A stretch of DNA of 64,000 nucleotides. It comes from PVC group bacterium. Its GTDB lineage: Bacteria > Auribacterota > Erginobacteria > Erginobacterales > Erginobacteraceae. A program made the translations under genes and the position numbers. Of the stretch, positions 6 to 42,024 are shown piece by piece (the first letter of the stretch is position 1; each line of letters opens with the position of its first letter). The stretch spans positions 6,629 to 70,628 of the forward strand of contig JAXGWO010000003.1 in the NCBI GenBank assembly GCA_040773245.1. The letters run 5' to 3'. The notes under the pieces were generated by a model. It had not been told where the DNA came from. It ran no database searches and saw only the letters and a list, made by a program, of their open reading frames with translations.

Positions 6-3000
6 ATGACCGAAGCTGCAAATGGGATTCCGCTGCCTCCATCGGACATTCGCAAACTGCGAGAGTGCCAACGACTGGCACTGCAGAAGATCGCATCTTG
101 GCATGGACCGAAGGCGCACGAGACCTTTCTTGCTTGTATGCCGACGGGGACCGGTAAAACGGGCGTCATTGCCCTTAGCGGGTTGTATTTCGCCAAGAAG
201 GATGTGCTGATTGTCACGCCTTGGGACAACCTTCGAACCCAGATGGTAGATGCTCTCGAAGCAAAATTCTGGGAGAACTCAGGAATCACCAAGCCCGAAG
301 GATTCCGAGCAAAGGCCTTCTCCGGCAAAGACCTCGCTGACGAGTTCAAGAAGATAAAACCAGACACGCCGCGAACGTTCTGGGTTACGACGTTCCAAGG
401 CCTCTGGACGACCAGCAAAAGCAAGGAAACCTTCTCTGAACTGCGATCACGTCTCGACCTGGTCGTAATCGATGAAGGACACTACGAACCCGCTATGTGG
501 TGGGGGCACGCCGCCAAAGAGCTCAAGACTCCTACAATCCTGTTTACCGCGACGCCCTACCGCAATGATCTGAAGTACTTCCGCATTCGGGAAAAGGATG
601 TGTCGCACTATAAATACAAGGATGCCGTAACTGAAGATGTCATTCGGCGCGTTGCGCCGACGCCACTCGGAGAAGCTGGAGGGTCCACTGAAGAAATTGC
701 GGCTGCCATCGCCGAGAAATGGAGTAGCGCCAAGAAGCGCACCTTGGCGAACCCGCATCCCAAGATGATTGTTTGCTGCCGCAATTTCCAAGCGGTAAAG
801 GCGTACACCCTCCAACTGGCGAAGCTTGACCTTCCGGTTATCGGCATTCACATCCGCGCGACTAAGAAGCATCTGTCGGCCAAGCAGCTGAAGCTCTTCA
901 GAAGCAAAGTACCGAAAGACCCTTCGGATGAGTCAGCAGAGATATGGGTTCACGAGAAGATGCTCACCGAGGGACTCGACCATCCGCCCTTCTGTTCGCT
1001 CGCAATCACCTACAATATGAGAAATGACCGCAAGTTGATTCAGCAAATCGGCAGGGTTGTGCGGCGAGCTAATGATGATCGGCATAACAACGCCGTTGTT
1101 TACTCGGTTGGCGACGCCTGCGTCGATGCCAGTTGGGAATCGTTTCAGGATTTCGAGGATGACTTTCGTGTGGTCACCACCGAGTACTACAGAGACTTCA
1201 TTGACAACCACCTGAGCAATCAACCTGCGGTGGAGTACTTCGGCAAGCGATTCAGGCGACAACTTGTACCCAAAGAGCTTTCCGCAGAGGTGGCGGGGCG
1301 CGAACTGCTTTCTCTTCCGAGCGTCATAGCGCGTCGCATTGGTGACAACTTTGATATCGACAAGTTCGTCTACGACGTAACCGATAATATCCAACTGCAA
1401 GAGGATTTCGTTGCTCTCGGCCCGATCAGGGACTCGCCGGTGTTATCGCCAGAGGACACTGCGCCCGTGAAGGGAGCGGTGTGGTTATATTGTAGGTTTT
1501 CCAACTCGCGTGCGTTACTTGCGCATTCTGCTTATGAGGTGAAGCTCTCGGCTCTTTGTGTTGTCCTGATCAATCCCTTTCTGTTTGTTTCCGATACGGA
1601 TGCGTTTGTGCCCGCGGAATCTCTTGAGAAACACACCTTCCCATTGCGTCTATCTGACCTGCGCCGAGCGTTCGCAAGTGGGTACCTGCCCACGCAAGTG
1701 CAACTGAAGAACTCCCTACCACACCAAAGCGTGGTACGTGGGACGACACGGTCAGGCAAGAACCTTGCGGAGGTACCCAACTCGCTCACCGAATCAAAGT
1801 ACATCTGTAGTTCGATTCGCGGGAGAAACCCGACCGAAGGGCGTAGGTATGTAGGCTTCACTACTGGACGTCTAAGCGATGATCGAAATGGTATGCGGCG
1901 CTACGAAATGTGCTTCACTGACTTAATCAGGTGGTGTGAAGAGGTTGCTAGGGTGCTGCGGACCTCTGCTGCCACTCACACCTTCTTCCTGCGATTCGCA
2001 CGCCTTGTAGACCCACCTGCGGCGATTGAGCCACACTATGGTTTCTTGGACTTCTGGTCTGGTGCCTTCACGCTCGTGGATCAGGACGGCAACACCAGGG
2101 AACCGATGGATGCCGTGTTTCAGTTTATTCCTGAGGATGCCGATGGAGACGATAAGACGACCAAGGCTTACAGGTTCCACATCCGCGGTGAACTCGACGG
2201 CAAGGAGGAAACAGCGGAGTTGAGAACCTTCTGGCGGGATGGACGATTTCACTTCAAAGCGGTCGAAACCAACGGCCTGGTCATCCGAGAGGCCATAACA
2301 AGCTCTAGCGGTGAGCAAGAATCTACCAGGGACGTTGAGATTGCCTCCTTCTGCAGCCGGAAGCAAGGCGACCTGTTCATTTCACTTGCCTCAAGTAACG
2401 TGATCTTCAATAGCGGAAGCTTCTTCGAGGTCGATCCTACGAGCAATTATTCAGACCTTGGCGGCATGTTCATCGGTTGCGATGAACTCAATCGGGAAGG
2501 ACTTTCCGAGAAGAACCCCAAAGGCAAGAAAAGGATGAAGAGCTGGTGCAAGCAGTCAATCTTCGGAATTGCCAGTTCAGACTCCTTTTTAGCCCGAGAG
2601 TTCGGTGGCAAGCCGGATCTGATTGTGTGTGACGACGGCTCCGACGAGATTGCCGACTTCGTCCTCGTCCAGTTCGATCCACCGAAGTTCGTGCTCGTCC
2701 ACTGCAAGTCTAAACCGCGTAAGGACGACGACAAGGAGCTGCGCGCTGTCTGCGAGCTCCAAGAGGTGGTGTCACAGGCATCAAAGAACCTGGTGTATAT
2801 GTCTGGGCGAAGTCAGATTCCGCCCCACATTGACGAGTGGACGAAGACCAAGAACGTGTACGGTTTCCAGGTGCCGCGGCTACTGCGCAAGGTTGGCACG
2901 AAGCTCTCGGGAACAGCTCTCTGGAATCATATCAGCGACAATGTCCTGCTCAGCAGAAACACAGAGAAGGAAGTGTGGATCATAGTCGGGGGCGCACTCA

Positions 3001-3149
3001 CAAAGTCATGGATCGACCGCGAACTTGCGAAGTGCAAACGAGCGCAGTCGAACCTGGCGTGTCTGTTTCATATGGTTGACGGCCTGAGCGCCTCTTGTAC
3101 GGAAGCCAACGCCAGGCTTAAGGTATTCTGCAACTCCGGAGATAGCTGA
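6..3149 (+). CDS. SF2 (ResIII/DEAD-like) helicase fused to a C-terminal Mrr-like PD-(D/E)xK-type nuclease-like domain; 1047 aa
   Basis: Complete SF2 motif set in the N-terminal ~360 aa: motif I MPTGTGKTG (nt ~139-165), Ia IVTPWDNL, II VVIDEGHY (DExH, nt ~463-486), III TATPYRN, VI QQIGRVVRR. C-terminal region has CDDGSDEIADFVLV ... VLVHCKSK (nt ~2614-2715), resembling the Mrr_cat DGxxD ... QCK core. Lower GC than downstream host genes. Stop overlaps next start (TGATG). Confidence 0.6.
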   Translation: MTEAANGIPLPPSDIRKLRECQRLALQKIASWHGPKAHETFLACMPTGTGKTGVIALSGLYFAKKDVLIVTPWDNLRTQMVDALEAKFWENSGITKPEGFRAKAFSGKDLADEFKKIKPDTPRTFWVTTFQGLWTTSKSKETFSELRSRLDLVVIDEGHYEPAMWWGHAAKELKTPTILFTATPYRNDLKYFRIREKDVSHYKYKDAVTEDVIRRVAPTPLGEAGGSTEEIAAAIAEKWSSAKKRTLANPHPKMIVCCRNFQAVKAYTLQLAKLDLPVIGIHIRATKKHLSAKQLKLFRSKVPKDPSDESAEIWVHEKMLTEGLDHPPFCSLAITYNMRNDRKLIQQIGRVVRRANDDRHNNAVVYSVGDACVDASWESFQDFEDDFRVVTTEYYRDFIDNHLSNQPAVEYFGKRFRRQLVPKELSAEVAGRELLSLPSVIARRIGDNFDIDKFVYDVTDNIQLQEDFVALGPIRDSPVLSPEDTAPVKGAVWLYCRFSNSRALLAHSAYEVKLSALCVVLINPFLFVSDTDAFVPAESLEKHTFPLRLSDLRRAFASGYLPTQVQLKNSLPHQSVVRGTTRSGKNLAEVPNSLTESKYICSSIRGRNPTEGRRYVGFTTGRLSDDRNGMRRYEMCFTDLIRWCEEVARVLRTSAATHTFFLRFARLVDPPAAIEPHYGFLDFWSGAFTLVDQDGNTREPMDAVFQFIPEDADGDDKTTKAYRFHIRGELDGKEETAELRTFWRDGRFHFKAVETNGLVIREAITSSSGEQESTRDVEIASFCSRKQGDLFISLASSNVIFNSGSFFEVDPTSNYSDLGGMFIGCDELNREGLSEKNPKGKKRMKSWCKQSIFGIASSDSFLAREFGGKPDLIVCDDGSDEIADFVLVQFDPPKFVLVHCKSKPRKDDDKELRAVCELQEVVSQASKNLVYMSGRSQIPPHIDEWTKTKNVYGFQVPRLLRKVGTKLSGTALWNHISDNVLLSRNTEKEVWIIVGGALTKSWIDRELAKCKRAQSNLACLFHMVDGLSASCTEANARLKVFCNSGDS

Positions 3150-4282
3150 TGGCTCGATCGAGCAAACTAAGGGTGATGATCTCGAGCAGATGTAATGACG
3201 TGTTTCCTCACGGCAGCGGCTCAGGAAGGACACTCTCGGATATCCGCCGTGATCTGAAGAAAGACATCGAAGCCGAGAAGGTACTTGGTAAGAAGACCTT
3301 TGATGTGTGGATCAATGAGGAGTCTCCGCCAAAGGGTGGCACCTGGGATAGCTGGGACACGTGCATTAAGGCTGCAAAAGATTGCGACATACTCCTGGTT
3401 CTGACGAATGGCAATGCTGGATGGGCTGGCGCGGCAGGAGATATCGGAATATGCCACGCGGAATTGTCGACAGGGCTTTCGTCCGCTCCTGGGAAGGTGT
3501 GGCTGATTTCTTTGGGGGACATCCCGTGTCCAGCCACTGCGGAAGGGAATCGCAACAAACGATTCCAAAATTTCGTGAACACCCAGAGCCTCTTCCGTGG
3601 AGGAGTCGTCAAGACAGAGGCTGACCTCAAGAATCGTGTAAAGGAGGCCCTGCAAAATGCTGTCGTTGACCTCGTGCAGAAGGGCGTTGCCGAGGCGAGC
3701 CGCGGGAAGTTCCACAGCGGCGCAGCGCTCGACTGGGATCGCCTAGATTTCGAAAATCGGCGGAGCAAGATGAAGTCGATAGTCCGCGATACCCTTCAGG
3801 GGCGATTAGGCACTAAGTCAGATGGGGATCATGAGGTTGTGAGTATTGGAGGAAAGGAAATCCTGCTTGTTTCCGATGCTATCCCTGCCGCCATGTCGAT
3901 ATCGGCAGCGCGGGAAAAGGTTGGACAGCCATTTCTTCATGACCACCTGTTAGTCGCTTCACTCAAGGGGGCTCGCGGAGGACCTGTTCACATCATTGCC
4001 TGTCACAAGGGCGTGACTGAGGCGCAAGCGCTTCGAATGCTTGGCTTCCCAGATGCAACCGTTGTGAACACGCCATTTGGAATCTATCTTGCGGACGGCA
4101 TACAGCGCATCCAGCTTGTGTTGATCTCCGGGTGCAGAGATGAGTCGACCACACGACATGGCATCCAAAGGTTCTTCGATTGGCTCCAGCAGACAGGCGA
4201 GGATAGACTGCTTGCACAAAGAGCTGTGTCACGAGCGAAGATTGTGGCCGTCATCTCAAAGGAGTTAGCGGTCGCCAAATGA
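3149..4282 (+). CDS. Hypothetical protein with DUF4062-like N-terminal domain (VMISSRCNDVF ... DIRRDLKKDIE); 377 aa
   Basis: ATG overlaps upstream stop by 1 nt (translational coupling). N-terminal pattern hISSxxxD ... DLKxxxE recalls the DUF4062 domain found at N-termini of many defence-island proteins. Remainder has no motif I can name. Confidence 0.45.
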   Translation: MARSSKLRVMISSRCNDVFPHGSGSGRTLSDIRRDLKKDIEAEKVLGKKTFDVWINEESPPKGGTWDSWDTCIKAAKDCDILLVLTNGNAGWAGAAGDIGICHAELSTGLSSAPGKVWLISLGDIPCPATAEGNRNKRFQNFVNTQSLFRGGVVKTEADLKNRVKEALQNAVVDLVQKGVAEASRGKFHSGAALDWDRLDFENRRSKMKSIVRDTLQGRLGTKSDGDHEVVSIGGKEILLVSDAIPAAMSISAAREKVGQPFLHDHLLVASLKGARGGPVHIIACHKGVTEAQALRMLGFPDATVVNTPFGIYLADGIQRIQLVLISGCRDESTTRHGIQRFFDWLQQTGEDRLLAQRAVSRAKIVAVISKELAVAK

Positions 4283-4291
4283 GGGCGGCGT

Positions 4292-4513
4292 ATGAAACAC
4301 CTCACTCAAACAGACCACGTATGGTCGCAGTTGGGTGACAATGCACTACTAAAGAATGCTTGGCCCCGGCTTTTTGTCGAAGAAATGGAATATGCAGGAG
4401 CAATTGCGCGAACAACAGCATACAGCGGACGGCGCTTCGCGCCGCCGCTGATGCTGAGCGTTCGGCAAAAAGAAATAGGAATCACCTATCGCAAATCGTC
4501 AATAGGAGATTAG
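4292..4513 (+). CDS. Small hypothetical ORF (73 aa) in the 232-nt gap between the DUF4062-like and HerA-like genes
   Basis: ORF exactly fills the intergenic gap and has a weak GAGGG upstream. No recognisable motif. May simply be a spacer or internal promoter region. Confidence 0.15.
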
Positions 4514-4514
4514 G

Positions 4515-6656
4515 ATGACTGACATCGTATCGAATCTGGCCGGAAGGTTAAGCGAACCGGAGTTGAGCGAGCCCCTGCAAGCGGCCAGCCGGGCGCTGAC
4601 AGCCCTAGTTGAGGACACCGCCTACGTCGGCGAAGTCTACTCGCTCGGATACGACGAAGCCCTTGTCCAGATACACGACTTCCACCGCCAACGGGTCGGC
4701 GGCATTCCTGCGCTCTCCTTCTTGATCGCTACCCGTGTCGGCACTGGCGCCTTGGCAGACGTGCGACAGGAGGACGCCTCCATCGTGCTCCTACGTGTTC
4801 TTGATAAAGCCGACCTACCCAATGCGGACGAAGCCCTGCGCGTCCGAGTCGAAACGGCACAGCGGGTAAGCGGTGAAGTAACTCGGCACTGGGACGACCG
4901 GACCGTTATGGACCCGACGACGCACAATCTGCTCAGCTACGCTGGCGTCCGATGCCGAGTGCTGGGAACCTATTATATGGTCAACGCCGGCTCCGACAAC
5001 GCCCCCGTGTTCCGCCTCTTCTTCGGCTCGGACCTCAGTAACTACTACCCCAACCGTGGCCTGAAGGTCTTCAAGCCGCGCGGCAGCGTGCTGGAGGACA
5101 TCGTCAACTTCCGTGACCCCCGGCTGCCTGTTGCCGCACACGACGGCGATGTCTCCATCGGACAGGTTCGCTACGCTTCGAGCCACCGGCCCTTCCAAGG
5201 CATCGACGGTGTGCCAGTGCAGATCACGCCGACGGACCTTCTCGGCCAGAAGACCGCACTCTTCGGGATGACACGTACCGGCAAGTCGAACACTACGAAG
5301 ATCATTCTCAAGTCCATCTTCGCCCTCAGGTGGGGCCACAACCCGATTCGTATCGGCCAGATCGTCTTCGACCCGAACGGCGAGTATGCAAACGAGAACG
5401 AGCAGGACTCCGGAGGCAAAGGACTCAACGCCGAAGCAATTAAGAACGTCTGGAAGTGCGGCCCGGCCGCTCAGCACCAGCGATTGCAGGCGGATGTCAT
5501 TACCTACGGCATCATGGCACACCCAAACGATCCCCACCGGAGGCTGATGCTGCTGAACTTCTACCTCGACGCCAATCTCCAGATCGGCAAGGAGATCATC
5601 AACGATGCGCTGTCGGACCAGACCTCCACCTACCTAAGCAACTTCCGGAACGTCACGTTTGACCCGCCCGACGCGAATGATCGTTCGGCCGTGACCAGAT
5701 ACAACCGTCGCGTTCTCGCCTACCGAGCGTTGCTATTCAAAGCCGGGCTGCAAGTGCCAAGCAGCCTGAGGCCAAACACCCGCAACCTGTTCAATGCGAA
5801 TCTGTTGGCGACCCTGCATACGGACGCACAGAATGGTACTGGCAAGTCGCCCGCCGACTACGGCGTCTGCGCAACCATTCTCGCCAAGCAAACGCCGACG
5901 TGGGCTGAGCTTGCCCAAGCGTTTGAGATACTCCGCGACTACATCGCCGATAGTGGCTCCGGCTGGGGTGCGTTCAACGCGGCTTACGTTCAGACAAGCA
6001 GTTCTGGCTCATGGGCAGACGACGACCTCAAGAAGATTCTGGAGATGTTCGCCTATCCCAACGGCTCCCGCCTGATCGGGCGAGTGAAGGAGCAGCACAC
6101 ACCGGACACAAGCTCCGACTATGCCGCTGACATCTACGAACACCTCAAGCAAGGCCGGCTGGTAATTGTCGATCAGTCGAGCGGCAATCCCGAAATCAAC
6201 AAGGCGGCGGCGGATCGGGTGATGCGGCTAATCTTCGAAGGGCATCAGCAGCAGTTCCGCACGGCACAGACACCGCCCGAGGTGCTGGTGTATGTCGAGG
6301 AGGCCCACAATATCCTACCGTCCTCGCGGGAGCTTGACTTCCAGGACATCTGGGTCCGCTCCGCGAAGGAAGGGGCGAAGTATCACATCGGCTTAGTCTA
6401 CGCGACGCAGGAGGTGAGTTCGATCCAGCAGAACATCCTGCGAAACACGGTCAACTGGTTCATCGGCCATCTAAATAACACCGACGAGACACGCGAAATC
6501 CGCAAGTTCTACGACTTCGCCGACTTCGAGGGTAGCATTCTCCGTGCCCAGGACAAGGGCTTCGTCCGTGTGAAGACACTATCAAACCCGTATGTCATCC
6601 CGGTGCAGGTGGACCGCTTCCTTATCGAAGACACCTCGAACCCTCAGGGGGCGTGA
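4515..6656 (+). CDS. HerA/FtsK-like (DUF87-type) P-loop ATPase; 713 aa
   Basis: Strong SD (AGGAG, 9 nt upstream of ATG). Walker [15 protein letters not shown] (nt ~5261-5300). Walker B with HerA-typical hhhhDEAH-like [14 protein letters not shown]-terminal region consistent with a HAS-barrel-like segment. Size typical of HerA-family ATPases. Confidence 0.55.
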
Positions 6657-6657
6657 C

Positions 6658-8022
6658 GTGCCATACGACGGTGAATACGCGACATACCGCCCTCTGCATC
6701 GGATCTCCGAGTGCCAAAGGGTGACGAGCCTTCTTGCCCGATCCAAGCTCTTGGAGGTAGCACGGGCCACCTACGCCCCGAAGCCCGTCGAAGCTCCTCC
6801 GCAGGCGCCAGCCTTGCCGCGGTTCATACTCGCGATAGACGGCAGCTACGCTGAAGTGGACGTGAAGAACGGCTATCCGGGCGCCAAGGTCGGCTACTGC
6901 ACTGCGGCGAGTGTGCTCCTTGACCTACACCTCATCGGCGAACTGGATGAAGAGCGTCCGGTTGATCCCGTCGAGTTCCGCAAGACAGAGCAAGCCGCAA
7001 GCGTCGACGCCGCGCTGCCGGGCAGCAACGTGGTCACGCGAAGGCAGAACTCCGCGCGGGCGTCGTTCCGCGAGGAACTCTACGACCTCTTCACCGACAT
7101 CGTCGTTGACGAAGACGACCGTATGAACTTGCTCTCGACCTACGAAGCACTGCTGGTGCTGAAACCGACGGCCAATCCTCAGAGTTGCCCATACAAGGAG
7201 TCGCACGGTTGCACGGCGGCATTCGCGGTTGGCTCCGGTTGCACGATGTGTCCGACCTGCGGTCGTCCCGTATACTCCACCGACGCCCTTCGCATCCATG
7301 AGCGGTTCAGGGACATCGGAACAAACGGCGAGGCGTTCGGCCTGGTAATGCAGGTTATGGAACGGCTGCTCGCAATCCATTTCCTCCGATGCTTTGAGCG
7401 CCGCAATCTGCTGCAACGTCTCCCGTCGCTCGCATTCTTCATCGACGGTCCATTGGCGGCGTTCGGCCCGCCGGCTTGGCTGAGCGCCGCTATCAGCCGG
7501 GAACTCAAACGACTCAATCAGAAGGTGCAGGCCGCAACCGGCCAGGACCTCTTGATCTTAGGCATCGAAAAGACCGGGGTTTTCGTGCAGCACTTCGAAG
7601 AAATCGACCAAACGGAAACGCCGGGACAGCAGCTTTTCTCCGCGCGGCAATACATACTCCTGACGGACGGCTATATCAAGGATCGTATCCTGCACTCCGA
7701 CAGCCACAAGCGGTACGGGGAAGATACCTATTTCGGCCGAAAGTTCTTCTACAAGGCGCAGAGTGGGGCTCGGATCGTCGCCAGCATTCCGTTTCTATCC
7801 GATGCTCAAGACACCATAGCCAATGACGACATCTCTCTCTATCCACAGTTCGCTGCCGTCTGCACGCTCCTGGATCGCGTGGTGTCGTCACGTTACGCGA
7901 ACTCGGTGTCGCCGTTGATTGCGGCCAATGCCCAGGCCGCTATCCCGCTGCAACTCGGATCGAAGGTGTTGACGCAACTGGCGAGGGCGCTTCTAGGAAC
8001 TGCTGAGAATGGCAGGAAATAG
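6658..8022 (+). CDS. NurA-like nuclease-domain protein with inserted Cys4 zinc ribbon; ~455 aa from GTG 6658 (ORF track alternative start ATG 6592 would overlap upstream gene by 65 nt)
   Basis: GTG at 6658 lies 1 nt after the HerA-like stop. N-terminal RFILAIDGSYAEVD (nt ~6824-6860) matches NurA motif I (catalytic Asp in IDGS). A second FFIDGP occurs later. CPYKESHGC ... CTMCPTCG cluster at nt ~7190-7265. Gene order ATPase then nuclease mirrors HerA-NurA operons. Confidence 0.4.
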   Translation: MPYDGEYATYRPLHRISECQRVTSLLARSKLLEVARATYAPKPVEAPPQAPALPRFILAIDGSYAEVDVKNGYPGAKVGYCTAASVLLDLHLIGELDEERPVDPVEFRKTEQAASVDAALPGSNVVTRRQNSARASFREELYDLFTDIVVDEDDRMNLLSTYEALLVLKPTANPQSCPYKESHGCTAAFAVGSGCTMCPTCGRPVYSTDALRIHERFRDIGTNGEAFGLVMQVMERLLAIHFLRCFERRNLLQRLPSLAFFIDGPLAAFGPPAWLSAAISRELKRLNQKVQAATGQDLLILGIEKTGVFVQHFEEIDQTETPGQQLFSARQYILLTDGYIKDRILHSDSHKRYGEDTYFGRKFFYKAQSGARIVASIPFLSDAQDTIANDDISLYPQFAAVCTLLDRVVSSRYANSVSPLIAANAQAAIPLQLGSKVLTQLARALLGTAENGRK

Positions 8023-9121
8023 CAAAACCTTCGGCACCGCGGCGAAGAGGTGGGAGGGAATCGGCCCATACTACGCCATGTTCCCGATTCGATTTGCCGA
8101 CGCGGTTATCAAAGAGCATACGGCAGCGGGTGACACAGTGCTTGACCCGTTCGCCGGCCGCGGGACCGCGATCTTCAGCGCATCGGCACTGGGGAGGCGC
8201 GGGTTCGGCGTTGAGATAAGTCCTGTCGGATGGGTCTACGCGAAGGCCAAGCTGGGCCCCGCGCCTCCGGAGCAAGTCGAGCAACGGCTACAGGAGATTG
8301 CTAATGCGGGCAGAGTCTATGCCGAGCAAGCCCGGTCTCTGCCGGAGTTCTTCAAGAAGTGCTTCTCTCCGTCTGTTCGGCGCTTCCTGCTCGCCGCGCG
8401 AGATGGACTCGACTGGCGTAGATGCACTTGCGACAGGACACTTATGGCGATCCTACTCGTCTACCTGCACGGGAAGGAAGGCCAGGCACTATCGAACCAG
8501 ATGAGGCAAACAAAGGCTATGTCACCGCAGTACGCCATCCAATGGTGGATTGAACACGGATCGAATCCGCCTGACTTAGATGCGGTGGAGTTTCTGCAGC
8601 AGCGAATCCGCTGGCGATACGCGAAGGGCGTGATTGAGGCGGATGACAGCCGGATTTTCCTGGGCAACAGCATCACCGTCCTTCCGCAATTGGCGAAGCG
8701 AATGCGCGAAGAGAAAGCCCCAAAAGCGAAGCTCTTGCTCACATCACCGCCGTACTTTGGCGTTACGAATTACCATTACGACCAGTGGCTTAGGCTCTGG
8801 TTGCTAGGATTTGAGACCGACGCCTACGTGGCCCGAGGGCCATACCAAGGCCGGTTCACCCATCCTGTCCGCTATCGAAGCTTGCTCAATAAGGTCTTCT
8901 GCCGCGCGGCGAAACTGATCGCGGACAACGCAGTGGTCTACGTCCGCACTAGCAAGGACCCGTTTACCAAGAAGGCGACGCTTGATACCATGCTCAAAGC
9001 CTTCCCGAAGAAGCGGCTGATCGAGCGATGCCAGCCATTCCGAAAACCGACGCAGACATTCCTTTTCGGCGACAACACGCCGAAGGCTGGCGAGGTAGAC
9101 TTAATCTTGTTGCCATCATGA
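8009..9121 (+). CDS. DNA methyltransferase, N6-adenine/N4-cytosine family (N6_N4_Mtase-like); 370 aa
   Basis: AdoMet motif I VLDPFAGRGTAIFSA (nt ~8140-8180) and catalytic motif IV LLTSPPYFGV (nt ~8744-8770; SPPY typical of N4C/N6A MTases). Order I ... IV with ~200 aa between. Start overlaps the NurA-like gene end by 14 nt. Confidence 0.75.
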   Translation: MAGNSKTFGTAAKRWEGIGPYYAMFPIRFADAVIKEHTAAGDTVLDPFAGRGTAIFSASALGRRGFGVEISPVGWVYAKAKLGPAPPEQVEQRLQEIANAGRVYAEQARSLPEFFKKCFSPSVRRFLLAARDGLDWRRCTCDRTLMAILLVYLHGKEGQALSNQMRQTKAMSPQYAIQWWIEHGSNPPDLDAVEFLQQRIRWRYAKGVIEADDSRIFLGNSITVLPQLAKRMREEKAPKAKLLLTSPPYFGVTNYHYDQWLRLWLLGFETDAYVARGPYQGRFTHPVRYRSLLNKVFCRAAKLIADNAVVYVRTSKDPFTKKATLDTMLKAFPKKRLIERCQPFRKPTQTFLFGDNTPKAGEVDLILLPS

Positions 9122-9221: not shown

Positions 9222-10151
9222 ATGACTATGCCGAACTTGGAAATCGCGGCTAGAAATTTCATAGGAACCTACACCTCACTAAACGGCACCACTATTCAGC
9301 CTATCAGTCGATTCGCCCTTCTCCGGTCCATGATCACTGTCGGGTATAAGTGCGAGGCCGACGCGATCGGGTATGGCTGGCGGAGTATCGGTTGGCATCT
9401 TTCGACCTGCTTTCTCACCATCGCTACGACCGTATCGCGGAACGGCAACTTGGTCGTATCTAAGCTTTTCCACTCCCTGGATTCATCCGAAAAGAATATG
9501 GTCAGCTACCGCTTGGGGATGGGTCTAACCAAGTACACTGCGGAAGTCAAACTCAACGTCCCGTGGCTCGTACACCTGGACAAGATATTCAATGCTGGTG
9601 GACTAACCTTGCAGGACGGGACTCTCGAACGTGGAGACCTTGCTGGGCAAGACGGCGCTGGGGTATGGCATGTGGTAGAGGCAAAGGGCAGATCCAATCC
9701 GCCATCCGGCAAGCTCCTCACCAAAGCCAAGAATCAGGTCTCGCGCGTTACCTCCATTAATGGACAGCCCCCGGCCACCAAGTCGGCGTCTATCATCCAT
9801 TTGTACAGAGACCCCATCAGAGCCGAATTGGTTGACCCACAGAAGCCGGAGAAGAAGCCACTCAAGATCCAGATATCGCTCGGTAAGTATTTCCCAACAT
9901 ACTATGCCATTCTCCTTCAACTCCTCGATCTCTCCGAAATACAGTCTCACGTGGTTGGCGATGTACCCTTTAGCCTGACTCCCTTTGATTTTGGTGGCAA
10001 TGTGATCGGAATCGGCCTTGCTGACGCTGTTCGGAGGAATCCCACGGAAGCCCAGAGATTAACAAAGGAAATTCTGGCGATGGACCTGCGGCAGCGGGAG
10101 AATCCAAAGAAAAGCATTGGCCTTGATGGGGTGATTGTGGCGCAAATGTGA
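9222..10151 (+). CDS. Hypothetical protein, possible PD-(D/E)xK restriction-endonuclease-like partner of the methyltransferase (start more likely ATG 9228, which has AGGAGG 8 nt upstream)
   Basis: Segment RGDLAGQDGAGVWHVVEAKGRS (nt ~9640-9700) fits a D-x(n)-ExK core. Sits immediately downstream of a DNA MTase. No other recognisable motif, so the functional call is weak. Confidence 0.3.
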   Translation: MTMPNLEIAARNFIGTYTSLNGTTIQPISRFALLRSMITVGYKCEADAIGYGWRSIGWHLSTCFLTIATTVSRNGNLVVSKLFHSLDSSEKNMVSYRLGMGLTKYTAEVKLNVPWLVHLDKIFNAGGLTLQDGTLERGDLAGQDGAGVWHVVEAKGRSNPPSGKLLTKAKNQVSRVTSINGQPPATKSASIIHLYRDPIRAELVDPQKPEKKPLKIQISLGKYFPTYYAILLQLLDLSEIQSHVVGDVPFSLTPFDFGGNVIGIGLADAVRRNPTEAQRLTKEILAMDLRQRENPKKSIGLDGVIVAQM

Positions 10152-10992
10152 CGGCAGCCCCAACAAGAGCATCCAGCCCTACAAACGGGCCGCGCGGATG
10201 CGGCTCTTTTTAAGGCTGAAGCTCGCCGTTGATCTGAATAATAAGATGCGGCACCAAAAGAATATCATTGCCTTTAATGGCAAAGCACGCGGTCCGTCCG
10301 AAGAGAAGGCGCGAGTGGCGTTTATCAATAAAGCCTCGGGGTTATTATTCATCGCAGCAAAGGAGGCCGCAAAACGTGCACTAAGAGCATCAGGCACACT
10401 CGGGGAGCAAAATGAGGCAATGACCGCTGTGGTTCTGTGCGGAGTAGTCGCAGAGGCCAGCATCAATGAAATCAGCGCGTGGTATGAATCTCATCATCTT
10501 CATCCCCAGTTCAGCGTTTCGCATAATCTTCCATATGGCTTTGACCGCTTGGAACTCCGTGTCAAGTGGTCATTGTTCCCGATGATTGTCAGGCAACGTA
10601 GTTTCAACACTGGTGCCGAACTATGGCAGAGCTTCAATGCTCTAGTTGAACTCCGCAACTTCATTGTTCACCTTCGAGATCGCCCCCTATCAAAGTCAGT
10701 CAATGGATTACTAAGATCAAAAAAACTGATAGAGGAGCACCATAGTTTTCTTGGCTTTCCGGTTGCACAGTGGGCCTGCGAAACCGTTGCTTCAATGTTC
10801 GAAGAGCTTACCAAGTTGGTGGCACCACCTCAGGAATGGATACCAATCGTCTGGCATTGGACCCCAACTCATTCGTTCCCTTATGGCTTGTCGACACCAG
10901 GTGATTCGTTTGTTGAAACAGAAAGCAAGAAGCTACCAACAAGACGATCTAGGGGAAGGATCACTCGCAGTGGGTTCGCCACCCGTGAATGA
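10135..10992 (+). CDS. Hypothetical protein (285 aa; true start uncertain, internal ATGs at ~10197 and ~10246)
   Basis: Last ORF of the low-GC plus-strand array. Codon usage like the island genes. No motif recognised. Confidence 0.3.
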   Translation: MWRKCDGSPNKSIQPYKRAARMRLFLRLKLAVDLNNKMRHQKNIIAFNGKARGPSEEKARVAFINKASGLLFIAAKEAAKRALRASGTLGEQNEAMTAVVLCGVVAEASINEISAWYESHHLHPQFSVSHNLPYGFDRLELRVKWSLFPMIVRQRSFNTGAELWQSFNALVELRNFIVHLRDRPLSKSVNGLLRSKKLIEEHHSFLGFPVAQWACETVASMFEELTKLVAPPQEWIPIVWHWTPTHSFPYGLSTPGDSFVETESKKLPTRRSRGRITRSGFATRE

Positions 10993-11146: not shown

Positions 11147-12553
11147 TTACCACCAGCCCGGATAGGGAGGGACAAGGAAGAGGCGGAGGTGGAGGTCGCG
11201 GACTACTCTCAGGAGGAACTTGATAGCCCGCCAGTTTAGGGCCTTGAGGTTTCGGCGGAGGAAATAGAGGATGGTTGCGGGGTCGCGCTGGATTATCCGC
11301 ACTATCTTTTTGGAGGCGGCGGTTAGGTCGGAGTAGAAACTGGTCCAGGGGAGCTTGATCCAGGGCCAGGGGCCCTGCAGGTTCCAGTCGCCCTGCAGGG
11401 TTCCGTTCTTTTTGGCCTCCTCGTAGACCTCGGTTCCGGGGAGGGGATAGAGGACGGGGACGAAGCCTACTATCGGTTTGGCCTGGCGGAGGAAGGCGAT
11501 GGTTTCTTCGACGGTCTCGGGGGTCTCGCCCGGGAAGCCGACCATTATCTCGCCGTAGCAGCCAATTCCGGCTTCCTTGGTCAACCGCGCGGCTTCCAGG
11601 TTTTGAGCCACCGTGGTCCCCTTCCCCATCGCCTCCAGCACCCGGTCCGACCCGGACTCGAAGCCATAGACGATCTGCTCCACCCCTGCCCTCTTCAATT
11701 TCTCCAGCAGTTCCCGATCGACGGCGTCAACCCGGGAGCGGATCTTAAGCCGAAAATGGTATCCGCCACGGACCAGTCCATCGGCGATCTCCAGGCAGCG
11801 GGAACGGGCGGCGGTGAAGGCGTCGTCCTGGATGTGGACCGACCTCACCCCGCGACGCCGCAGTTCCTCGAACTCCACCATCAGGTTCTCGACGGACCGG
11901 ACGCGGCACTTCTTCTCCACCTGGAAACAGAATCGGCAGTTATAAGGACAGCCCCGGGAGCTGATCATCATATCCAGTTTTCCCCGGGCGGCCAGGTTCC
12001 AGTACAGGCCAGCTTGGTAGTAGCGGTCGAGGTAGCTTCGGTCGAGCGGGGGCAGGAGGTCGAGGTCCTCGATCCGGTCGGGGGGGTTGGAGGCGATCCC
12101 GCCTTCCGTCCGGTGAACCAGGCCGGGGACTTCCCGGGCGGGGATCTTTCCTTCCAGCATCTTGACCAGGGCGGGGAAGGAGCGGTCGGCCTCCCCCCGG
12201 ATGGCGTAGTCGAGCTGGGTAATCTTCTCCAGGGTCCACTCCGGCCGGGCGGTGGGGTGGGGACCGCCGACGACCATCGCCGCGTCGGGGAGGTAGGTCT
12301 TCATCCGCCGGGTGATCCGGTCGAAGGGGATCAGGTAGGGGGTGTAGCAGGTCAGTCCGACCAAGTCCGGGCGGTAGTCCCGGATCTCGGCGAAGAAGGG
12401 GTCCATCCGGCGGAACTCGCCGGAGTAGTCGAAGATCCTCGCCTCCTCCCCCGTTTCCCCGAGCTGGGTGGCCAGCCGGCAGAGGTGGAGGGGGGGGTAG
12501 TAGCCGGTGGACCTACCCTGGAAGGCGTCGTAAGCAACAAGGGCGATCTTCAT
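11147..12553 (-). CDS. B12-binding domain radical SAM protein; 468 aa
   Basis: N-terminal cobalamin-binding-like region (MKIALVAYDAF ... DLVGLTCYTP). Radical SAM CxxxCxxC: SSRGCPYNCRFCF. High-GC host-type codon usage begins here. Confidence 0.8.
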   Translation of the reverse strand: MKIALVAYDAFQGRSTGYYPPLHLCRLATQLGETGEEARIFDYSGEFRRMDPFFAEIRDYRPDLVGLTCYTPYLIPFDRITRRMKTYLPDAAMVVGGPHPTARPEWTLEKITQLDYAIRGEADRSFPALVKMLEGKIPAREVPGLVHRTEGGIASNPPDRIEDLDLLPPLDRSYLDRYYQAGLYWNLAARGKLDMMISSRGCPYNCRFCFQVEKKCRVRSVENLMVEFEELRRRGVRSVHIQDDAFTAARSRCLEIADGLVRGGYHFRLKIRSRVDAVDRELLEKLKRAGVEQIVYGFESGSDRVLEAMGKGTTVAQNLEAARLTKEAGIGCYGEIMVGFPGETPETVEETIAFLRQAKPIVGFVPVLYPLPGTEVYEEAKKNGTLQGDWNLQGPWPWIKLPWTSFYSDLTAASKKIVRIIQRDPATILYFLRRNLKALNWRAIKFLLRVVRDLHLRLFLVPPYPGWW

Positions 12554-41950: not shown

Positions 41951-42024
41951 GGCGGAGTAGCTCAGCTGGTTAGAGCAGCGGAATCATAATCCGCGTGTCG
42001 GGGGTTCGAGTCCCTCCTCCGCTA
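41951..42024 (+). tRNA. tRNA with anticodon CAT (elongator tRNA-Met or tRNA-Ile2/lysidine type); 74 nt, CCA not encoded
   Basis: Cloverleaf read by eye. Acceptor GGCGGAG/CTCCGCT (one G-U). D-arm GCTC-AGCTGGTTA-GAGC. Anticodon stem GCGGA/TCCGC with loop ATCATAA. Variable loop GTGTC. T-arm GGGGG-TTCGAGT-CCCTC. Discriminator A. Anticodon stem lacks the three G:C pairs of an initiator tRNA. Confidence 0.85.

What the first reader, a model, noticed from the sequence alone, without database searches (positions are those of the whole stretch)
4515..8022. HerA-NurA-like pair with a zinc-ribbon insertion in the NurA-like partner
Walker A GMTRTGKS and HerA-style Walker B VYVEEAH lie in the 713-aa protein. 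The adjacent 455-476-aa protein opens with the NurA catalytic motif ILAIDGSY and carries a CxxxxxxC ... CxxCxxC cluster (nt ~7190-7265) not typical of archaeal NurA. Start is ambiguous: GTG 6658 abuts the upstream stop, while ATG 6592 overlaps it by 65 nt.
Basis: partly seen in the sequence, partly recalled or inferred. Interest (0 to 1): 0.7.

Follow-up and report, generated by a model that had tools for sequence, protein, structure and literature searches.

The report
HerA–NurA nuclease machine with methylase
The two genes are a genuine HerA DNA pump and NurA nuclease pair (the nuclease carries a conserved zinc-binding insert), and they always travel with a third gene, a DNA methylase, as a mobile three-gene cassette that looks like an unnamed kind of restriction-modification defence.

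Summary

The cysteine cluster is real but needs refining. Four Cys (C177, C185, C198, C201) are conserved down to 28% identity; C195 is not. They sit in a ~60-residue insertion that TdpB lacks (it has no Cys), and the NurA structure papers I searched do not mention zinc.

A circularly permuted PF01555 methyltransferase (8009-9121, invariant TSPPY) overlaps the NurA stop. HerA-NurA-MTase recurs in about 80 of 82 loci from many phyla. The genes are tightly spaced, co-diverge, and have no other recurrent neighbour.

The closest known system is TdpABC, a phosphorothioate-based HerA/NurA-like restriction system. The closest gene-content analogue is the Thermus ICETh1 NurA-TdtA-methylase operon.

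Best reading (about 0.6): a methylation-coupled HerA-NurA restriction cassette. It is absent from PADLOC 2023 and from the literature I could search. PGAP labels the nuclease as a DSB-repair NurA. I rate it a new variant of a known kind. No experiment supports the function yet.

The parts
4515..6656 (+). herA-like gene, 713 aa (FtsK-HerA clade hexameric dsDNA translocase)
   Evidence: PF01935 E 7.7e-11, above its gathering score. PADLOC HerA model E 3e-22. Best PDB match is TdpA 8wet_A, E 2.4e-18. hhalign against a TdpA-like protein gives 98.9% probability. Homologues are 713 aa at 100% coverage, which confirms ATG 4515.
5265..5288 (+). HerA Walker A, GMTRTGKS (aa 251-258)
   Evidence: G251, M252, T253, R254, G256, K257 and S258 are invariant and T255 is nearly invariant (at least 90%) in alignments A3 and A4. 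The motif aligns to the TdpA P-loop.
5652..6059 (+). HerA helical-bundle insertion between Walker A and Walker B (aa ~380-515)
   Evidence: This is the only well-predicted part of the HerA model (pLDDT 80-94, six helices). It corresponds to the helix-bundle domain described for D. radiodurans HerA.
6288..6308 (+). HerA Walker B, VYVEEAH (aa 592-598)
   Evidence: E595, E596 and A597 are invariant in A3 and A4, and H598 is invariant in A4. The motif aligns to the TdpA sequence VVLEEAHN.
6645..6660 (+). herA/nurA junction: G-rich SD-like AGGGGG, herA stop TGA 6654-6656, nurA start GTG 6658
   Evidence: Sequence read. The HerA-to-NurA gap is mostly -1 to +5 nt in 55 cassettes.
6658..8022 (+). nurA-like gene, 454 aa ('Zn-NurA'), RNase-H-fold nuclease
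6658..6678 (+). Conserved N-terminal motif (V/M)PYDGEY
   Evidence: M1 and E6 are present in at least 90% of 98 sequences. The motif is shared with TdpB (MPYAGE) and the TdpB-like protein (MPYPGE). The first seven residues of D. radiodurans NurA were studied as a dimerisation strand.
6826..6849 (+). ILAIDGSY motif with catalytic D61 (nt 6838-6840)
   Evidence: Asp is present in 97 of 97 sequences. It aligns to the Asp of VDGG in the TdpB-like protein and is equivalent to Sso NurA D58.
7099..7275 (+). Family-specific insertion (aa ~148-206) carrying the 4-Cys element
   Evidence: The TdpB-like protein is gapped here in the MAFFT and hhalign alignments. The model predicts a helix at 158-166, a short helix at 180-183 and a beta-hairpin at 195-197/204-206.
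7186..7260 (+). Putative zinc knuckle or ribbon: C177-x7-C185-x12-C198-x2-C201 (C195 is not conserved)
   Evidence: Conservation among 97 aligned sequences: C177 90/97, C185 87/97, C198 94/97, C201 86/97. All four are present in the haloarchaeal, Nostoc and Deferribacter members and absent from the TdpB-like protein. C198 and C201 lie in the turn of the predicted hairpin. There is a weak profile match to the RPA70 zinc ribbon, E 0.36.
7282..7284 (+). D209, an invariant family-specific Asp directly after the zinc element (S-T-D)
   Evidence: Asp in 97 of 97 sequences. The TdpB-like protein has Thr here.
7360..7362 (+). E235, catalytic Glu
   Evidence: Glu in 95 of 97 sequences. It aligns to a Glu in the TdpB-like protein. 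By order and spacing it corresponds to Sso E116.
7444..7446 (+). D263 in FFIDGPL, catalytic Asp
   Evidence: Asp in 96 of 97 sequences. It aligns to KDGRL in TdpB. By order and spacing it corresponds to Sso D133.
7570..7572 (+). K305 in GIEKTG
   Evidence: Lys in 97 of 97 sequences. It aligns to a Lys in the TdpB-like protein. It corresponds to the conserved active-site K202 of Sso NurA.
7927..7929 (+). N424: the position before the last helix of the fold; His in most family members, Asn here
   Evidence: His in 90 of 97 sequences and Asn in 7 of 97. Asn is found in the window's subclade and in several independent lineages.
8009..9121 (+). DNA methyltransferase, 370 aa, circularly permuted PF01555 (motif I before motif IV). 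Its ATG lies 14 nt inside nurA.
   Evidence: PF01555 E 3.4e-11. PADLOC MTase_II E 1.3e-17. The permutation is shown by the alignment to 2zie. Present in 80 of 82 loci; the two without it are cut at contig ends. The NurA-to-MTase gap is mostly -11 to +7 nt.
8144..8167 (+). MTase motif I, DPFAGRGT (SAM binding)
   Evidence: D, P, G and R are invariant in 56 of 56 sequences.
8741..8755 (+). MTase motif IV, TSPPY (catalytic)
   Evidence: TSPPY is invariant in 56 of 56 sequences. SPPY is also present in the Halorarius and Deferribacter cassette methyltransferases.

Best explanation
Window 4515-9121 is a single three-gene operon, herA - nurA - DNA methyltransferase. It behaves as an autonomous, horizontally mobile cassette.

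The most likely function is a restriction-modification-like defence. The methyltransferase marks the host's own DNA; the TSPPY motif suggests N4-methylcytosine. A HerA hexamer loads on double-stranded DNA, uses ATP to pump it into a NurA dimer, and the dimer degrades DNA that lacks the mark. This is the same logic as TdpABC, where a phosphorothioate mark protects self DNA from the homologous TdpA/TdpB machine. Here a base methylase replaces the phosphorothioation enzyme.

What is shown: the identity and fold of the three proteins; intact ATPase, nuclease and methyltransferase motifs; the strict linkage, tight spacing and co-divergence of the three genes; homology of both HerA and NurA to TdpA and TdpB; and a four-cysteine element in a family-specific NurA insertion that sits directly before an invariant, family-specific Asp.

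What is inferred: complex formation (HerA6-NurA2), zinc binding, protection by methylation, and anti-phage or anti-plasmid activity. How a base methyl group would gate the machine is unknown. Candidates are the zinc insertion, the HerA helix bundle, or the methylase acting as a targeting subunit.
For: Protein identities:
- Pfam hits above gathering scores for DUF87/HerA, NurA and N6_N4_Mtase, plus PADLOC HerA and MTase_II hits.
- Best PDB sequence hits are TdpA (E 2.4e-18) and TdpB, both chains of the same entry. hhalign gives 98.9% for HerA against the TdpA-like protein and 89% for NurA against the TdpB-like protein, near full length.
- Catalytic residues are conserved in 95-97 of 97 sequences and map onto the published Sso NurA residues D58/E116/D133/K202.

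Cassette behaviour:
- HerA is in 81 of 82 loci and the MTase in 80 of 82, in the same order except for one locus where the MTase lies 4 kb downstream. The helicase, DUF4062 protein, orf309 and orf285 are in 0 of 82.
- Relatives occur in 190 species genomes from many phyla.
- Intergenic gaps are about -11 to +7 nt.
- No other neighbour family recurs in 77 loci, and there is no conserved upstream small ORF.
- Pairwise distances co-vary: r = 0.80-0.89, Mantel 0 of 999 permutations, no discordant pairs.
- The linkage persists at 23-28% identity and with a changed gene order, on a haloarchaeal plasmid and on a Deferribacter megaplasmid.

Defence context:
- The cassette sits in a low-GC mosaic island next to another defence-candidate helicase.
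- In Nostoc the gene after Zn-NurA encodes an AbiTii domain.
- Large disruptions mostly hit HerA or NurA while the MTase stays intact.
- The literature describes tdpABC as a PT-based R-M system and raises an antiviral role for HerA-NurA.
Against: - There is no experimental evidence for this family, and nothing was found on viral contigs or in phage-assay literature.
- PADLOC 2023 has no model that hits this NurA, so the defence role rests on context.
- The only experimentally studied operon with the same gene content (Thermus ICETh1: NurA-like, TdtA, PF01555 methylase) was implicated in DNA donation rather than defence, and its methylase had only minor effects.
- A cyanobacterial sub-branch has XRE-HTH, DUF87 and Zn-NurA with no adjacent methylase, so the nuclease module can exist without a linked MTase.
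- No hypervariable target-recognition region is visible in the MTase, which is unusual for R-M systems under diversifying selection.
- The asymmetry of gene decay is not statistically significant. Two loci show a frameshifted MTase with HerA and NurA intact; L038's contig name marks an ONT assembly, so at least that one could be a sequencing error.
- Position 424 is Asn rather than the usual His in this locus.
- The HerA model is of low confidence (pLDDT 61).
Confidence: 0.6

Rival explanations
1. DNA-donation or transfer machinery like the DNA secretion system of Thermus ICETh1. The HerA-like ATPase pumps DNA out of the cell, NurA trims or processes it, and the methylase is an accessory.
For: ICETh1 carries NurA-like (377 aa), TdtA (HerA/FtsK-like hexamer) and a PF01555 methylase in one operon. 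Knockouts of tdtA and the nurA-like gene abolish or greatly reduce transjugation (PMC5365140, PMC7767461). The cassette here is clearly mobile across phyla.
Against: Nothing that ICETh1 needs besides these genes travels with this cassette. No type IIG restriction enzyme, integrase, att repeats or conjugation genes recur in 77 loci, and no tRNA lies near the island. The gene order differs. By sequence and fold the proteins are closest to TdpAB, which the citing literature describes as part of a restriction system. No membrane-anchoring feature was noticed, though this was not tested specifically. Sequence similarity to TdtA and TTC1878 could not be tested.
Confidence: 0.1
2. Housekeeping double-strand-break end-resection complex, as the PGAP name 'DNA double-strand break repair nuclease NurA' implies.
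For: The fold and catalytic residues are those of NurA, and the partner is HerA. Archaeal and Deinococcus HerA-NurA have been studied as resection machinery.
Against: No Mre11 or Rad50 is nearby in any of 77 loci. The distribution is patchy, with 85-94% identity between different phyla, which indicates recent horizontal transfer. The cassette lies in a low-GC island and on plasmids. It is strictly coupled to a DNA methyltransferase. Even for archaeal HerA-NurA the resection role is now questioned.
Confidence: 0.07
3. A defence system, but with a Type I/III-like mechanism rather than a Tdp-like one. The methyltransferase is the sequence-recognition subunit of a MTase-HerA-NurA complex. It recruits or licenses the pump-nuclease at unmethylated sites, instead of the methyl marks passively blocking a freely translocating HerA-NurA.
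For: Type III Mod subunits belong to the same Pfam family, PF01555 (established knowledge). The MTase start overlaps the NurA stop, which suggests stoichiometric co-production. The MTase co-diverges with NurA (r = 0.86). Backbone-contacting translocases would not obviously sense major-groove methyl groups (inference). The zinc-bearing insertion could be a docking surface (inference).
Against: No fusion of the MTase to NurA or HerA was seen. Cyanobacterial Zn-NurA members lack the MTase yet keep the zinc insertion. In Deferribacter the MTase sits upstream of HerA, so the overlap is not universal. No interaction was tested.
Confidence: 0.2
4. A mark-independent nuclease that attacks free DNA ends (RecBCD-like degradation of linear invader DNA). 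On this reading the linked methylase serves another purpose, for example protection from other restriction systems or epigenetic regulation.
For: Characterised HerA-NurA complexes load at DNA ends and digest both strands. MTase-less Zn-NurA/HerA pairs exist.
Against: It does not explain the near-absolute linkage, tight spacing and co-divergence with one particular MTase family across bacteria and archaea.
Confidence: 0.08

Closest known systems
TdpABC phosphorothioate-based restriction system (TdpA/TdpB, PDB 8wet, 8wfd, 8y1k; An et al., Nat Chem Biol 2025, cited in PMC12914056)
   Different: The modification gene is a SAM-dependent PF01555 methyltransferase, not the PP-loop TdpC-like enzyme. 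Compared with TdpB (358-381 aa, no Cys), NurA is larger (454 aa) and has a ~60-aa insertion with four conserved Cys plus the extra invariant D209. HerA is 713 aa against 586-608 aa. In the recovered Tdp-type locus the gene order is C-B-A, whereas here it is A-B-MTase. This family is found in mesophilic MAGs of many phyla rather than in thermophiles. Sequence identity is only about 13-20%.
Thermus thermophilus ICETh1 'DNA secretion' operon (TthHB27I/Tth111II - NurA-like TTC1878 - TdtA TTC1879 - PF01555 methylase TTC1880)
   Same: It has the same three protein families in one operon: a NurA-like nuclease, a HerA/FtsK-like hexameric ATPase and an N4/N6 PF01555 methylase, on a mobile element.
   Different: ICETh1 adds a type IIG restriction-methylation enzyme, an integrase and att sites, and none of these travels with this cassette. 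The order there is NurA-TdtA-methylase. The NurA-like protein is 377 aa. The function was assigned experimentally to DNA donation (transjugation). Sequence relatedness to the window proteins was not tested.
Canonical archaeal and Deinococcus HerA-NurA end-resection complex (Sso 2ygk/4d2i, Pfu 3tai, Dra 7f6d, Tko 9x1l)
   Same: The folds and catalytic residues are the same, and the two genes are adjacent and probably co-translated.
   Different: There is no Mre11/Rad50 linkage. A methyltransferase is obligately linked. NurA carries a zinc-bearing insertion, whereas zinc is not mentioned in the three structure papers searched. The distribution is horizontally mobile and island- or plasmid-borne.
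HerA-Sir2 and HerA-DUF4297 two-gene anti-phage systems
   Same: A HerA-clade ATPase is paired with an effector in a defence context. PADLOC HerA models hit the window HerA, and PDB chains of these HerAs match at E 1e-7 to 1e-4.
   Different: The effector here is a NurA-fold nuclease, not Sir2 or a Cap4-like DUF4297 (no hits). Those systems carry no modification gene.
ATP-dependent restriction-modification (Type I / Type III)
   Same: A DNA methyltransferase of the family used by Type III Mod (PF01555) is in an operon with an NTP-driven DNA translocase and a nuclease.
   Different: The translocase is a ring-shaped FtsK-HerA pump rather than an SF2 helicase. The nuclease has an RNase-H/NurA fold rather than PD-(D/E)xK. 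The methylase is circularly permuted relative to beta-class enzymes.

Membership tests
NurA nuclease family (PF09376) | Matches the family profile above the curated threshold | tested here: met
   39.5 bits against a gathering score of 21, E 6e-10, residues 79-400 of the 476-aa ORF.
NurA nuclease family (PF09376) | RNase-H-like NurA fold | tested here: met
NurA nuclease family (PF09376) | Catalytic Asp-Glu-Asp plus the conserved active-site Lys (Sso D58, E116, D133, K202) | tested here: met
   D61 97/97, E235 95/97, D263 96/97, K305 97/97. The Sso residues come from PMC3326311. The mapping is by motif order, spacing and alignment to the TdpB-like protein, not by direct superposition.
NurA nuclease family (PF09376) | Adjacent, co-oriented herA gene | tested here: met
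   The herA stop is 2 nt before the nurA start. HerA is present in 81 of 82 loci.
NurA nuclease family (PF09376) | Dimeric, Mn2+-dependent nuclease activated by HerA | not testable with these tools
   Needs biochemistry.
Archaeal-type DSB-repair operon (mre11-rad50-herA-nurA) | Linkage to Mre11 and Rad50 | tested here: not met
   No recurrent neighbour family other than the three cassette genes in 77 loci, and none in the window.
HerA (FtsK-HerA superfamily ATPase) | Profile match plus Walker A and Walker B | tested here: met
   PF01935 42.9 bits against 23.2. PADLOC HerA E 3e-22. GMTRTGKS and VYVEEAH are invariant or nearly so.
HerA (FtsK-HerA superfamily ATPase) | N-terminal HAS barrel, and a helix-bundle inserted in the RecA-like core | tested here: inconclusive
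   The helix bundle is predicted with pLDDT 80-94 at aa ~380-515. The N-terminal 240 residues and the C-terminal core are below pLDDT 50-70.
TdpABC system | TdpA-like HerA ATPase and TdpB-like nuclease encoded together | tested here: met
TdpABC system | TdpC, a PP-loop enzyme that makes the phosphorothioate mark | tested here: not met
   The third gene is a PF01555 SAM-dependent methyltransferase. The Tdp-type locus L087 instead has a 364-aa SGGKDS PP-loop protein. The cassette is therefore not a Tdp system, although it probably works like one.
TdpABC system | The modification blocks translocation or nuclease action on self DNA | not testable with these tools
   Needs biochemistry. The Tdp mechanism itself is recalled from An et al. 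2025, which the library does not hold.
Restriction-modification system (generic) | An active-looking DNA methyltransferase (SAM motif I, catalytic motif IV) | tested here: met
   In DPFAGRGT, D, P, G and R are 56/56 and the other positions are nearly invariant. TSPPY is invariant in 56 of 56. PF01555 and PADLOC MTase_II hits.
Restriction-modification system (generic) | Nuclease and methylase inherited as one unit | tested here: met
   MTase in 80 of 82 loci, gaps of -11 to +7 nt, distance correlation r = 0.86 with Mantel 0 of 999.
Restriction-modification system (generic) | The nuclease is toxic without the cognate methylase; cleavage is sensitive to methylation | tested here: inconclusive
   Large disruptions hit HerA or NurA with the MTase intact (L018, L023, L065, Deferribacter), and one deletion (L015) removed parts of both NurA and the MTase. 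MTase-only damage is limited to two frameshifts, at least one from an ONT assembly. The numbers are too small; an experiment is needed.
ICETh1 DNA secretion operon | NurA-like, HerA/FtsK-like and PF01555 methylase genes in one operon | tested here: met
   The gene content is the same, but the order differs.
ICETh1 DNA secretion operon | Type IIG restriction enzyme, tyrosine recombinase and att repeats of an ICE | tested here: not met
   No recurrent neighbours and no tRNA near the island.
ICETh1 DNA secretion operon | Sequence orthology to TdtA and TTC1878 | not tested
HerA-DUF4297 / HerA-Sir2 defence | The effector is a DUF4297 (Cap4-like) nuclease or Sir2 | tested here: not met
   No Pfam or PADLOC hit of that kind for the 454-aa protein. 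Its fold is NurA.

The most novel reading that the evidence does not exclude
The cassette could be an undescribed class of ATP-dependent restriction-modification. In this class a ring-shaped HerA DNA pump and a zinc-bearing NurA nuclease take the place of the classical restriction endonuclease, and self DNA is protected by base methylation (probably m4C) rather than by the phosphorothioate mark of TdpABC. The family-specific zinc insertion with its adjacent invariant Asp (D209), or the enlarged HerA helix bundle, would be the adaptation that makes the machine sensitive to a base mark, or that docks the methylase. If true, this would give direct, testable support to the idea that HerA-NurA machines are ancestrally anti-invader nucleases rather than recombination-resection enzymes.
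Probability: 0.4. Interest if true: 0.75.

Novelty: new variant of a known kind. Interest (0 to 1): 0.6.

Why it matters
HerA-NurA has been treated for twenty years as an archaeal end-resection machine. Recent structural work questions that and proposes an antiviral role without genetic evidence (PMC12977600).

This is a HerA-NurA pair that is always welded to a DNA methyltransferase, spreads horizontally across many bacterial phyla and into haloarchaea, and has TdpAB as its nearest solved relative. That makes it a natural experiment for the question. It gives a compact three-gene cassette that can be cloned and tested for methylation-gated restriction.

It would also extend the Tdp principle (a pump-nuclease held in check by a DNA mark) from backbone sulfur to base methylation, and it would correct a widespread automatic annotation ('DSB repair nuclease NurA'). 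The Thermus ICETh1 operon with the same gene content might then deserve re-examination.

If the cassette is not a defence system, the finding reduces to a well-populated NurA subfamily with a structural zinc site, which is ordinary.

Tried and rejected
- DUF4297/Cap4-like identity for the nuclease: no Pfam or PADLOC hit, and the fold is NurA. Rejected.
- ATG 6592 as the start: homologues, gene callers and the conserved MPYxGE N-terminus all point to GTG 6658. Rejected.
- The upstream helicase (6-3149), the DUF4062-like gene (3149-4282), orf309 and orf285 as parts of the system: 0 of 82 co-occurrence. Rejected.
- The 73-aa ORF 4292-4513, or any small controller gene upstream of herA: not conserved. 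Rejected.
- A hypervariable specificity region in the MTase, HerA or NurA: sliding-window conservation showed none, apart from the loop between the Cys pairs.
- Gene-decay asymmetry as evidence of toxicity: the direction is as expected, but the numbers are too small and possibly confounded by ONT frameshifts.
The admissible alignment was shallow and gave pLDDT 61, so no fold search was run on it.
- Model coordinates are not exposed, so Cys-Cys distances and the position of the zinc element relative to the active site or channel could not be measured.
- The search for related loci with the deep alignment A2 failed for lack of a conserved stretch; A1 was used instead.
- The TdpB fragment against plasmids gave no match. 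A metagenome scan then recovered two Tdp-type loci.
- Viral contigs: no relative found.
- Papers not held: An et al. 2025 on Tdp and Iyer et al. 2004.
- Five literature searches for a HerA-NurA-methylase defence system found none. The Aravind-lab 'HerA/FtsK capture' paper does not mention NurA.

Full report
WHAT IS THERE

On the + strand, window 4515-6656 is a 713-aa ORF (ATG, preceded by AGGAG). A second ORF ends at 8022 and can start at ATG 6592 (476 aa) or GTG 6658 (454 aa).
- Walker A GMTRTGKS at aa 251-258 (nt 5265-5288).
- Walker B VYVEEAH at aa 592-598 (nt 6288-6308).
- ILAIDGSY at nt 6826-6849.
- A cysteine cluster at nt 7186-7260.

Pfam places the first protein in DUF87/HerA (42.9 bits; gathering score 23.2) and the second in NurA (39.5 bits; gathering score 21). 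PADLOC HerA models reach E 3e-22, and NCBIfam HerA models give sub-threshold hits. No DUF4297/Cap4-like or other nuclease family matches the second protein.

START CODON

More than 1200 homologues were found. Nearly all of the best 120 are 453 aa and begin MPY(E/D)GEYATYRP, aligned to VPYDGEYATYRP translated from GTG 6658. The GTG lies 2 nt after the herA stop, behind a G-rich SD-like stretch. Independent gene calls on the source contigs use it, and the exact 454-aa product is on record in NCBI-derived data. The N-terminal motif is itself conserved (M1 and E6 in at least 90% of 98 sequences) and is shared with TdpB. In D. radiodurans NurA the first seven residues were studied as a dimerisation strand. 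ATG 6592 can be dismissed.

THE NUCLEASE

An AlphaFold model built on a 98-sequence alignment reaching down to 26% identity is very confident (pLDDT 95.9, pTM 0.92).
- Foldseek gives the same picture.
- Across 97 full-length sequences (the query plus 96 representatives of 50%-identity clusters), D61 is in 97/97, E235 in 95/97, D263 in 96/97 and K305 in 97/97 (454-aa numbering).
- By order, spacing and alignment to a TdpB-like protein, these correspond to the published Sso NurA residues D58, E116, D133 and K202.

One oddity remains: the position before the last helix of the fold is His in 90/97 sequences but Asn in this locus, in its close relatives and in several independent lineages.

THE CYSTEINE CLUSTER

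The actual spacing is C177-x7-C185-x9-C195-x2-C198-x2-C201. C177, C185, C198 and C201 are conserved (90, 87, 94 and 86 of 97), and C195 is not. All four are present in members as distant as a haloarchaeal plasmid protein (28% identity) and the Nostoc and Deferribacter plasmid proteins. In the model, C198 and C201 sit at the turn of a beta-hairpin (strands 195-197 and 204-206), and C177 and C185 flank a short helix. That is the usual layout of a zinc knuckle or ribbon. A weak profile match to the RPA70 zinc ribbon (E 0.36) points the same way.

The element belongs to a ~60-residue insertion (aa ~148-206). This segment is absent from a TdpB-like protein recovered from a hot-spring metagenome, which contains no cysteine at all. 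It is followed directly by D209, which is invariant in this family (97/97) but Thr in the TdpB-like protein. The Sso, Dra and Tko NurA structure papers do not mention zinc.

However, it is the hallmark of a large clade, not a peculiarity of this locus.

THE ATPase

HerA homologues are 713 aa at full coverage, which fixes ATG 4515. TdpA is by far the best match among PDB chains (E 2.4e-18). The alignment covers the P-loop, Walker B and the C-terminal AKEGxKYxIG...TQ...HL region, and hhalign against a TdpA-like protein gives 98.9%. The HerA subunits of the Sir2-HerA and DUF4297-HerA systems, and the archaeal HerAs, match much more weakly.

The HerA model is poor overall (pLDDT 61). The exception is a six-helix bundle at aa ~380-515 between Walker A and B, consistent with the helix-bundle domain of characterised HerA. 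I ran no fold search on this model.

THE MISSING THIRD GENE

Motif I (DPFAGRGT, aa 46-53) precedes motif IV (TSPPY, aa 245-249). This is a circular permutation relative to beta-class enzymes such as TTHA0409, as the two-segment alignment shows. TSPPY is invariant in 56/56 cassettes. From general knowledge of MTase motifs, SPPY suggests N4-cytosine methylation; this is an inference only.

Evidence that the three genes form one unit:
- In 82 loci from public genomes (80 of the 190 species-representative hits, plus two look-ups that turned out to be loci already in that set), HerA is present in 81 and the MTase in 80. The order is the same except in one locus where the MTase lies 4 kb downstream, and the two loci without an MTase are cut by contig ends.
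- In 55 complete cassettes the HerA-to-NurA gap is mostly -1 to +5 nt and the NurA-to-MTase gap -11 to +7 nt.
- No other gene family recurs within 6 kb in 77 loci: no integrase, Mre11/Rad50 or conjugation genes. No small upstream ORF is conserved.
- Pairwise distances of the three proteins are strongly correlated (r = 0.80-0.89; Mantel 0/999; no discordant pairs), so the methylase is not swapped between cassettes.
- The linkage survives at 23-28% identity. A Halorarius plasmid has DUF87 - Zn-NurA - PF01555 MTase. Deferribacter pDF308 has MTase - DUF87 (split by IS200/IS605) - Zn-NurA, so the gene order has changed while the association is kept.
- A cyanobacterial sub-branch is different: XRE-HTH - DUF87 - Zn-NurA without a methylase, once followed by an AbiTii-domain gene.

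CONTEXT IN THE WINDOW

The first ~11 kb is a low-GC mosaic: helicase and DUF4062-like genes 0.54, the cassette 0.58-0.60, two unknown ORFs 0.50-0.53, and the host backbone above 0.62. The upstream 1047-aa SF2 helicase has a C-terminal domain that matches the PADLOC candidate PDC-S71. That helicase never accompanies the cassette elsewhere, so it is an independent neighbour in what looks like a defence island. No tRNA or viral-contig relative was found. Identities of 85-94% between cassettes in Planctomycetota, Chloroflexota, Acidobacteriota, Myxococcota, Desulfobacterota and Acidithiobacillus show recent horizontal spread.

COMPARISON WITH WHAT IS KNOWN

(a) TdpABC. The citing literature describes it as a third phosphorothioate-based R-M system in which TdpC alone makes the mark. 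From memory of An et al. 2025, which the library does not hold, the TdpA hexamer translocates on duplex DNA, the TdpB nuclease degrades it, and phosphorothioate blocks both on self DNA. Both window proteins are homologous to TdpA and TdpB, but the third gene is a methylase rather than a PP-loop enzyme. The cassette is therefore not a Tdp system, although it probably works like one.

(b) Thermus ICETh1 has the same gene content (NurA-like, TdtA, PF01555 methylase) plus a type IIG enzyme and an integrase. It is reported to drive DNA donation, with the methylase nearly dispensable. This is the main functional rival.

(c) Canonical HerA-NurA is linked to Mre11-Rad50 and to repair. Its authors now consider an antiviral role possible.

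(d) HerA-Sir2 and HerA-DUF4297 defence systems and the 'HerA/FtsK capture' systems show that HerA pumps are recurrent defence modules, but none of them uses NurA.

I found no description of a HerA-NurA-methylase defence system in five full-text searches, and PADLOC 2023 has no model for this nuclease. The library covers open-access papers only, so prior description elsewhere cannot be excluded.

MECHANISM AND CONFIDENCE

- That the pair is a HerA-NurA machine is near certain (above 0.95).
- That the unit is a three-gene operon with the methylase is equally firm.
- That it is a methylation-coupled restriction-like defence is my best reading (about 0.6). It rests on operon logic, mobility, island context, homology to TdpAB and the AbiTii-linked variant.
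- How a base methyl mark would gate a backbone-tracking pump is unexplained. The zinc insertion with D209, the HerA helix bundle, and the MTase as a targeting subunit are all candidates. The presence of the zinc element in methylase-less variants argues against a pure methyl-reader role.
- Large disruptions mostly hit herA or nurA with the MTase intact (L018, L023, L065, Deferribacter). The only MTase-only defects are small frameshifts, at least one in an ONT assembly. This fits R-M logic but is not significant.

VERDICT

It is best described as a new variant of a known kind (a Tdp-like pump-nuclease restriction system that uses base methylation). Databases currently annotate it as a DSB-repair nuclease, and it has not been tested experimentally.

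Noticed in passing
window 6-3149 and 3149-4282 (+): A 1047-aa SF2 helicase (ResIII/DEAD at the N-terminus) has a C-terminal half (aa 508-1043) that matches the PADLOC candidate PDC-S71 (E 1.3e-23). Its stop overlaps the start (ATGA) of a 377-aa protein with a weak, sub-threshold DUF4062 hit. This is probably a separate two-gene defence candidate; it never co-occurs with the cassette (0 of 82 loci).
   Followed up: partly
window 9222-10151 and 10135-10992 (+): Two ORFs (309 aa and 285 aa; the latter is called as 264 aa on the source contigs) lie directly downstream of the methylase. They have no family match apart from a marginal HEPN-like hit (E 0.0086), and they have the lowest GC of the island (0.50-0.53). 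They are not linked to the cassette elsewhere.
   Followed up: partly
window 1-~11000 versus the rest: The island is a GC mosaic (0.50-0.60) set in a 0.62-0.69 GC backbone. There is no tRNA within 20 kb (the only tRNA is at 41951-42024) and no integrase was seen. The left edge of the island may lie outside the window. A B12-binding radical SAM gene (11147-12553, minus strand, GC 0.64) marks the return to backbone composition.
   Followed up: partly
window 4292-4513 (+): A 73-aa ORF called on the source contigs ends 1 nt before the herA ATG, but it is not conserved upstream of other cassettes. The spacer contains a GC-rich hairpin (GGCGC-TTC-GCGCC, ~4428-4440) that could terminate the upstream operon.
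   Followed up: partly
window 7927-7929 (NurA N424): The active-site-adjacent position that is His in 90 of 97 family sequences and in the TdpB-like protein is Asn here. It is also Asn in all relatives of at least 83% identity and in several unrelated lineages. The recurrent His/Asn exchange has unknown consequences.
   Followed up: partly
protein P0087: A 696-aa protein carries both PF01935 (HerA) and PF09376 (NurA) domains, is 93% identical to the window NurA over 67% of its length, and is seen on 25 contigs. It is either a natural HerA-NurA fusion or a recurrent frameshift or gene-call artefact.
   Followed up: no
L018 5307-9981; L023 5121-9983; L085 2958-6756; L065: herA is interrupted by kilobase-sized insertions in two MAGs and by an IS200/IS605 (TnpA/TnpB) element on Deferribacter pDF308. 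It is deleted in L065. In all four the methyltransferase is intact.
   Followed up: partly
L084 4490-9298; L090 2470-6146; L091 2466-6146: Cyanobacterial plasmids carry a methylase-less variant: an XRE-type HTH regulator, DUF87 and Zn-NurA. In Nostoc this is followed by a 352-aa AbiTii-domain protein (E 2e-42).
   Followed up: partly
L087 1770-5774: A hot-spring metagenome contig carries a Tdp-type locus in the order PP-loop (SGGKDS) modification enzyme, TdpB-like (381 aa, no Cys), TdpA-like (608 aa), with overlapping genes. Immediately upstream is a 285-aa ORF that looks transposase-like by eye; this was not checked against any family library.
   Followed up: partly
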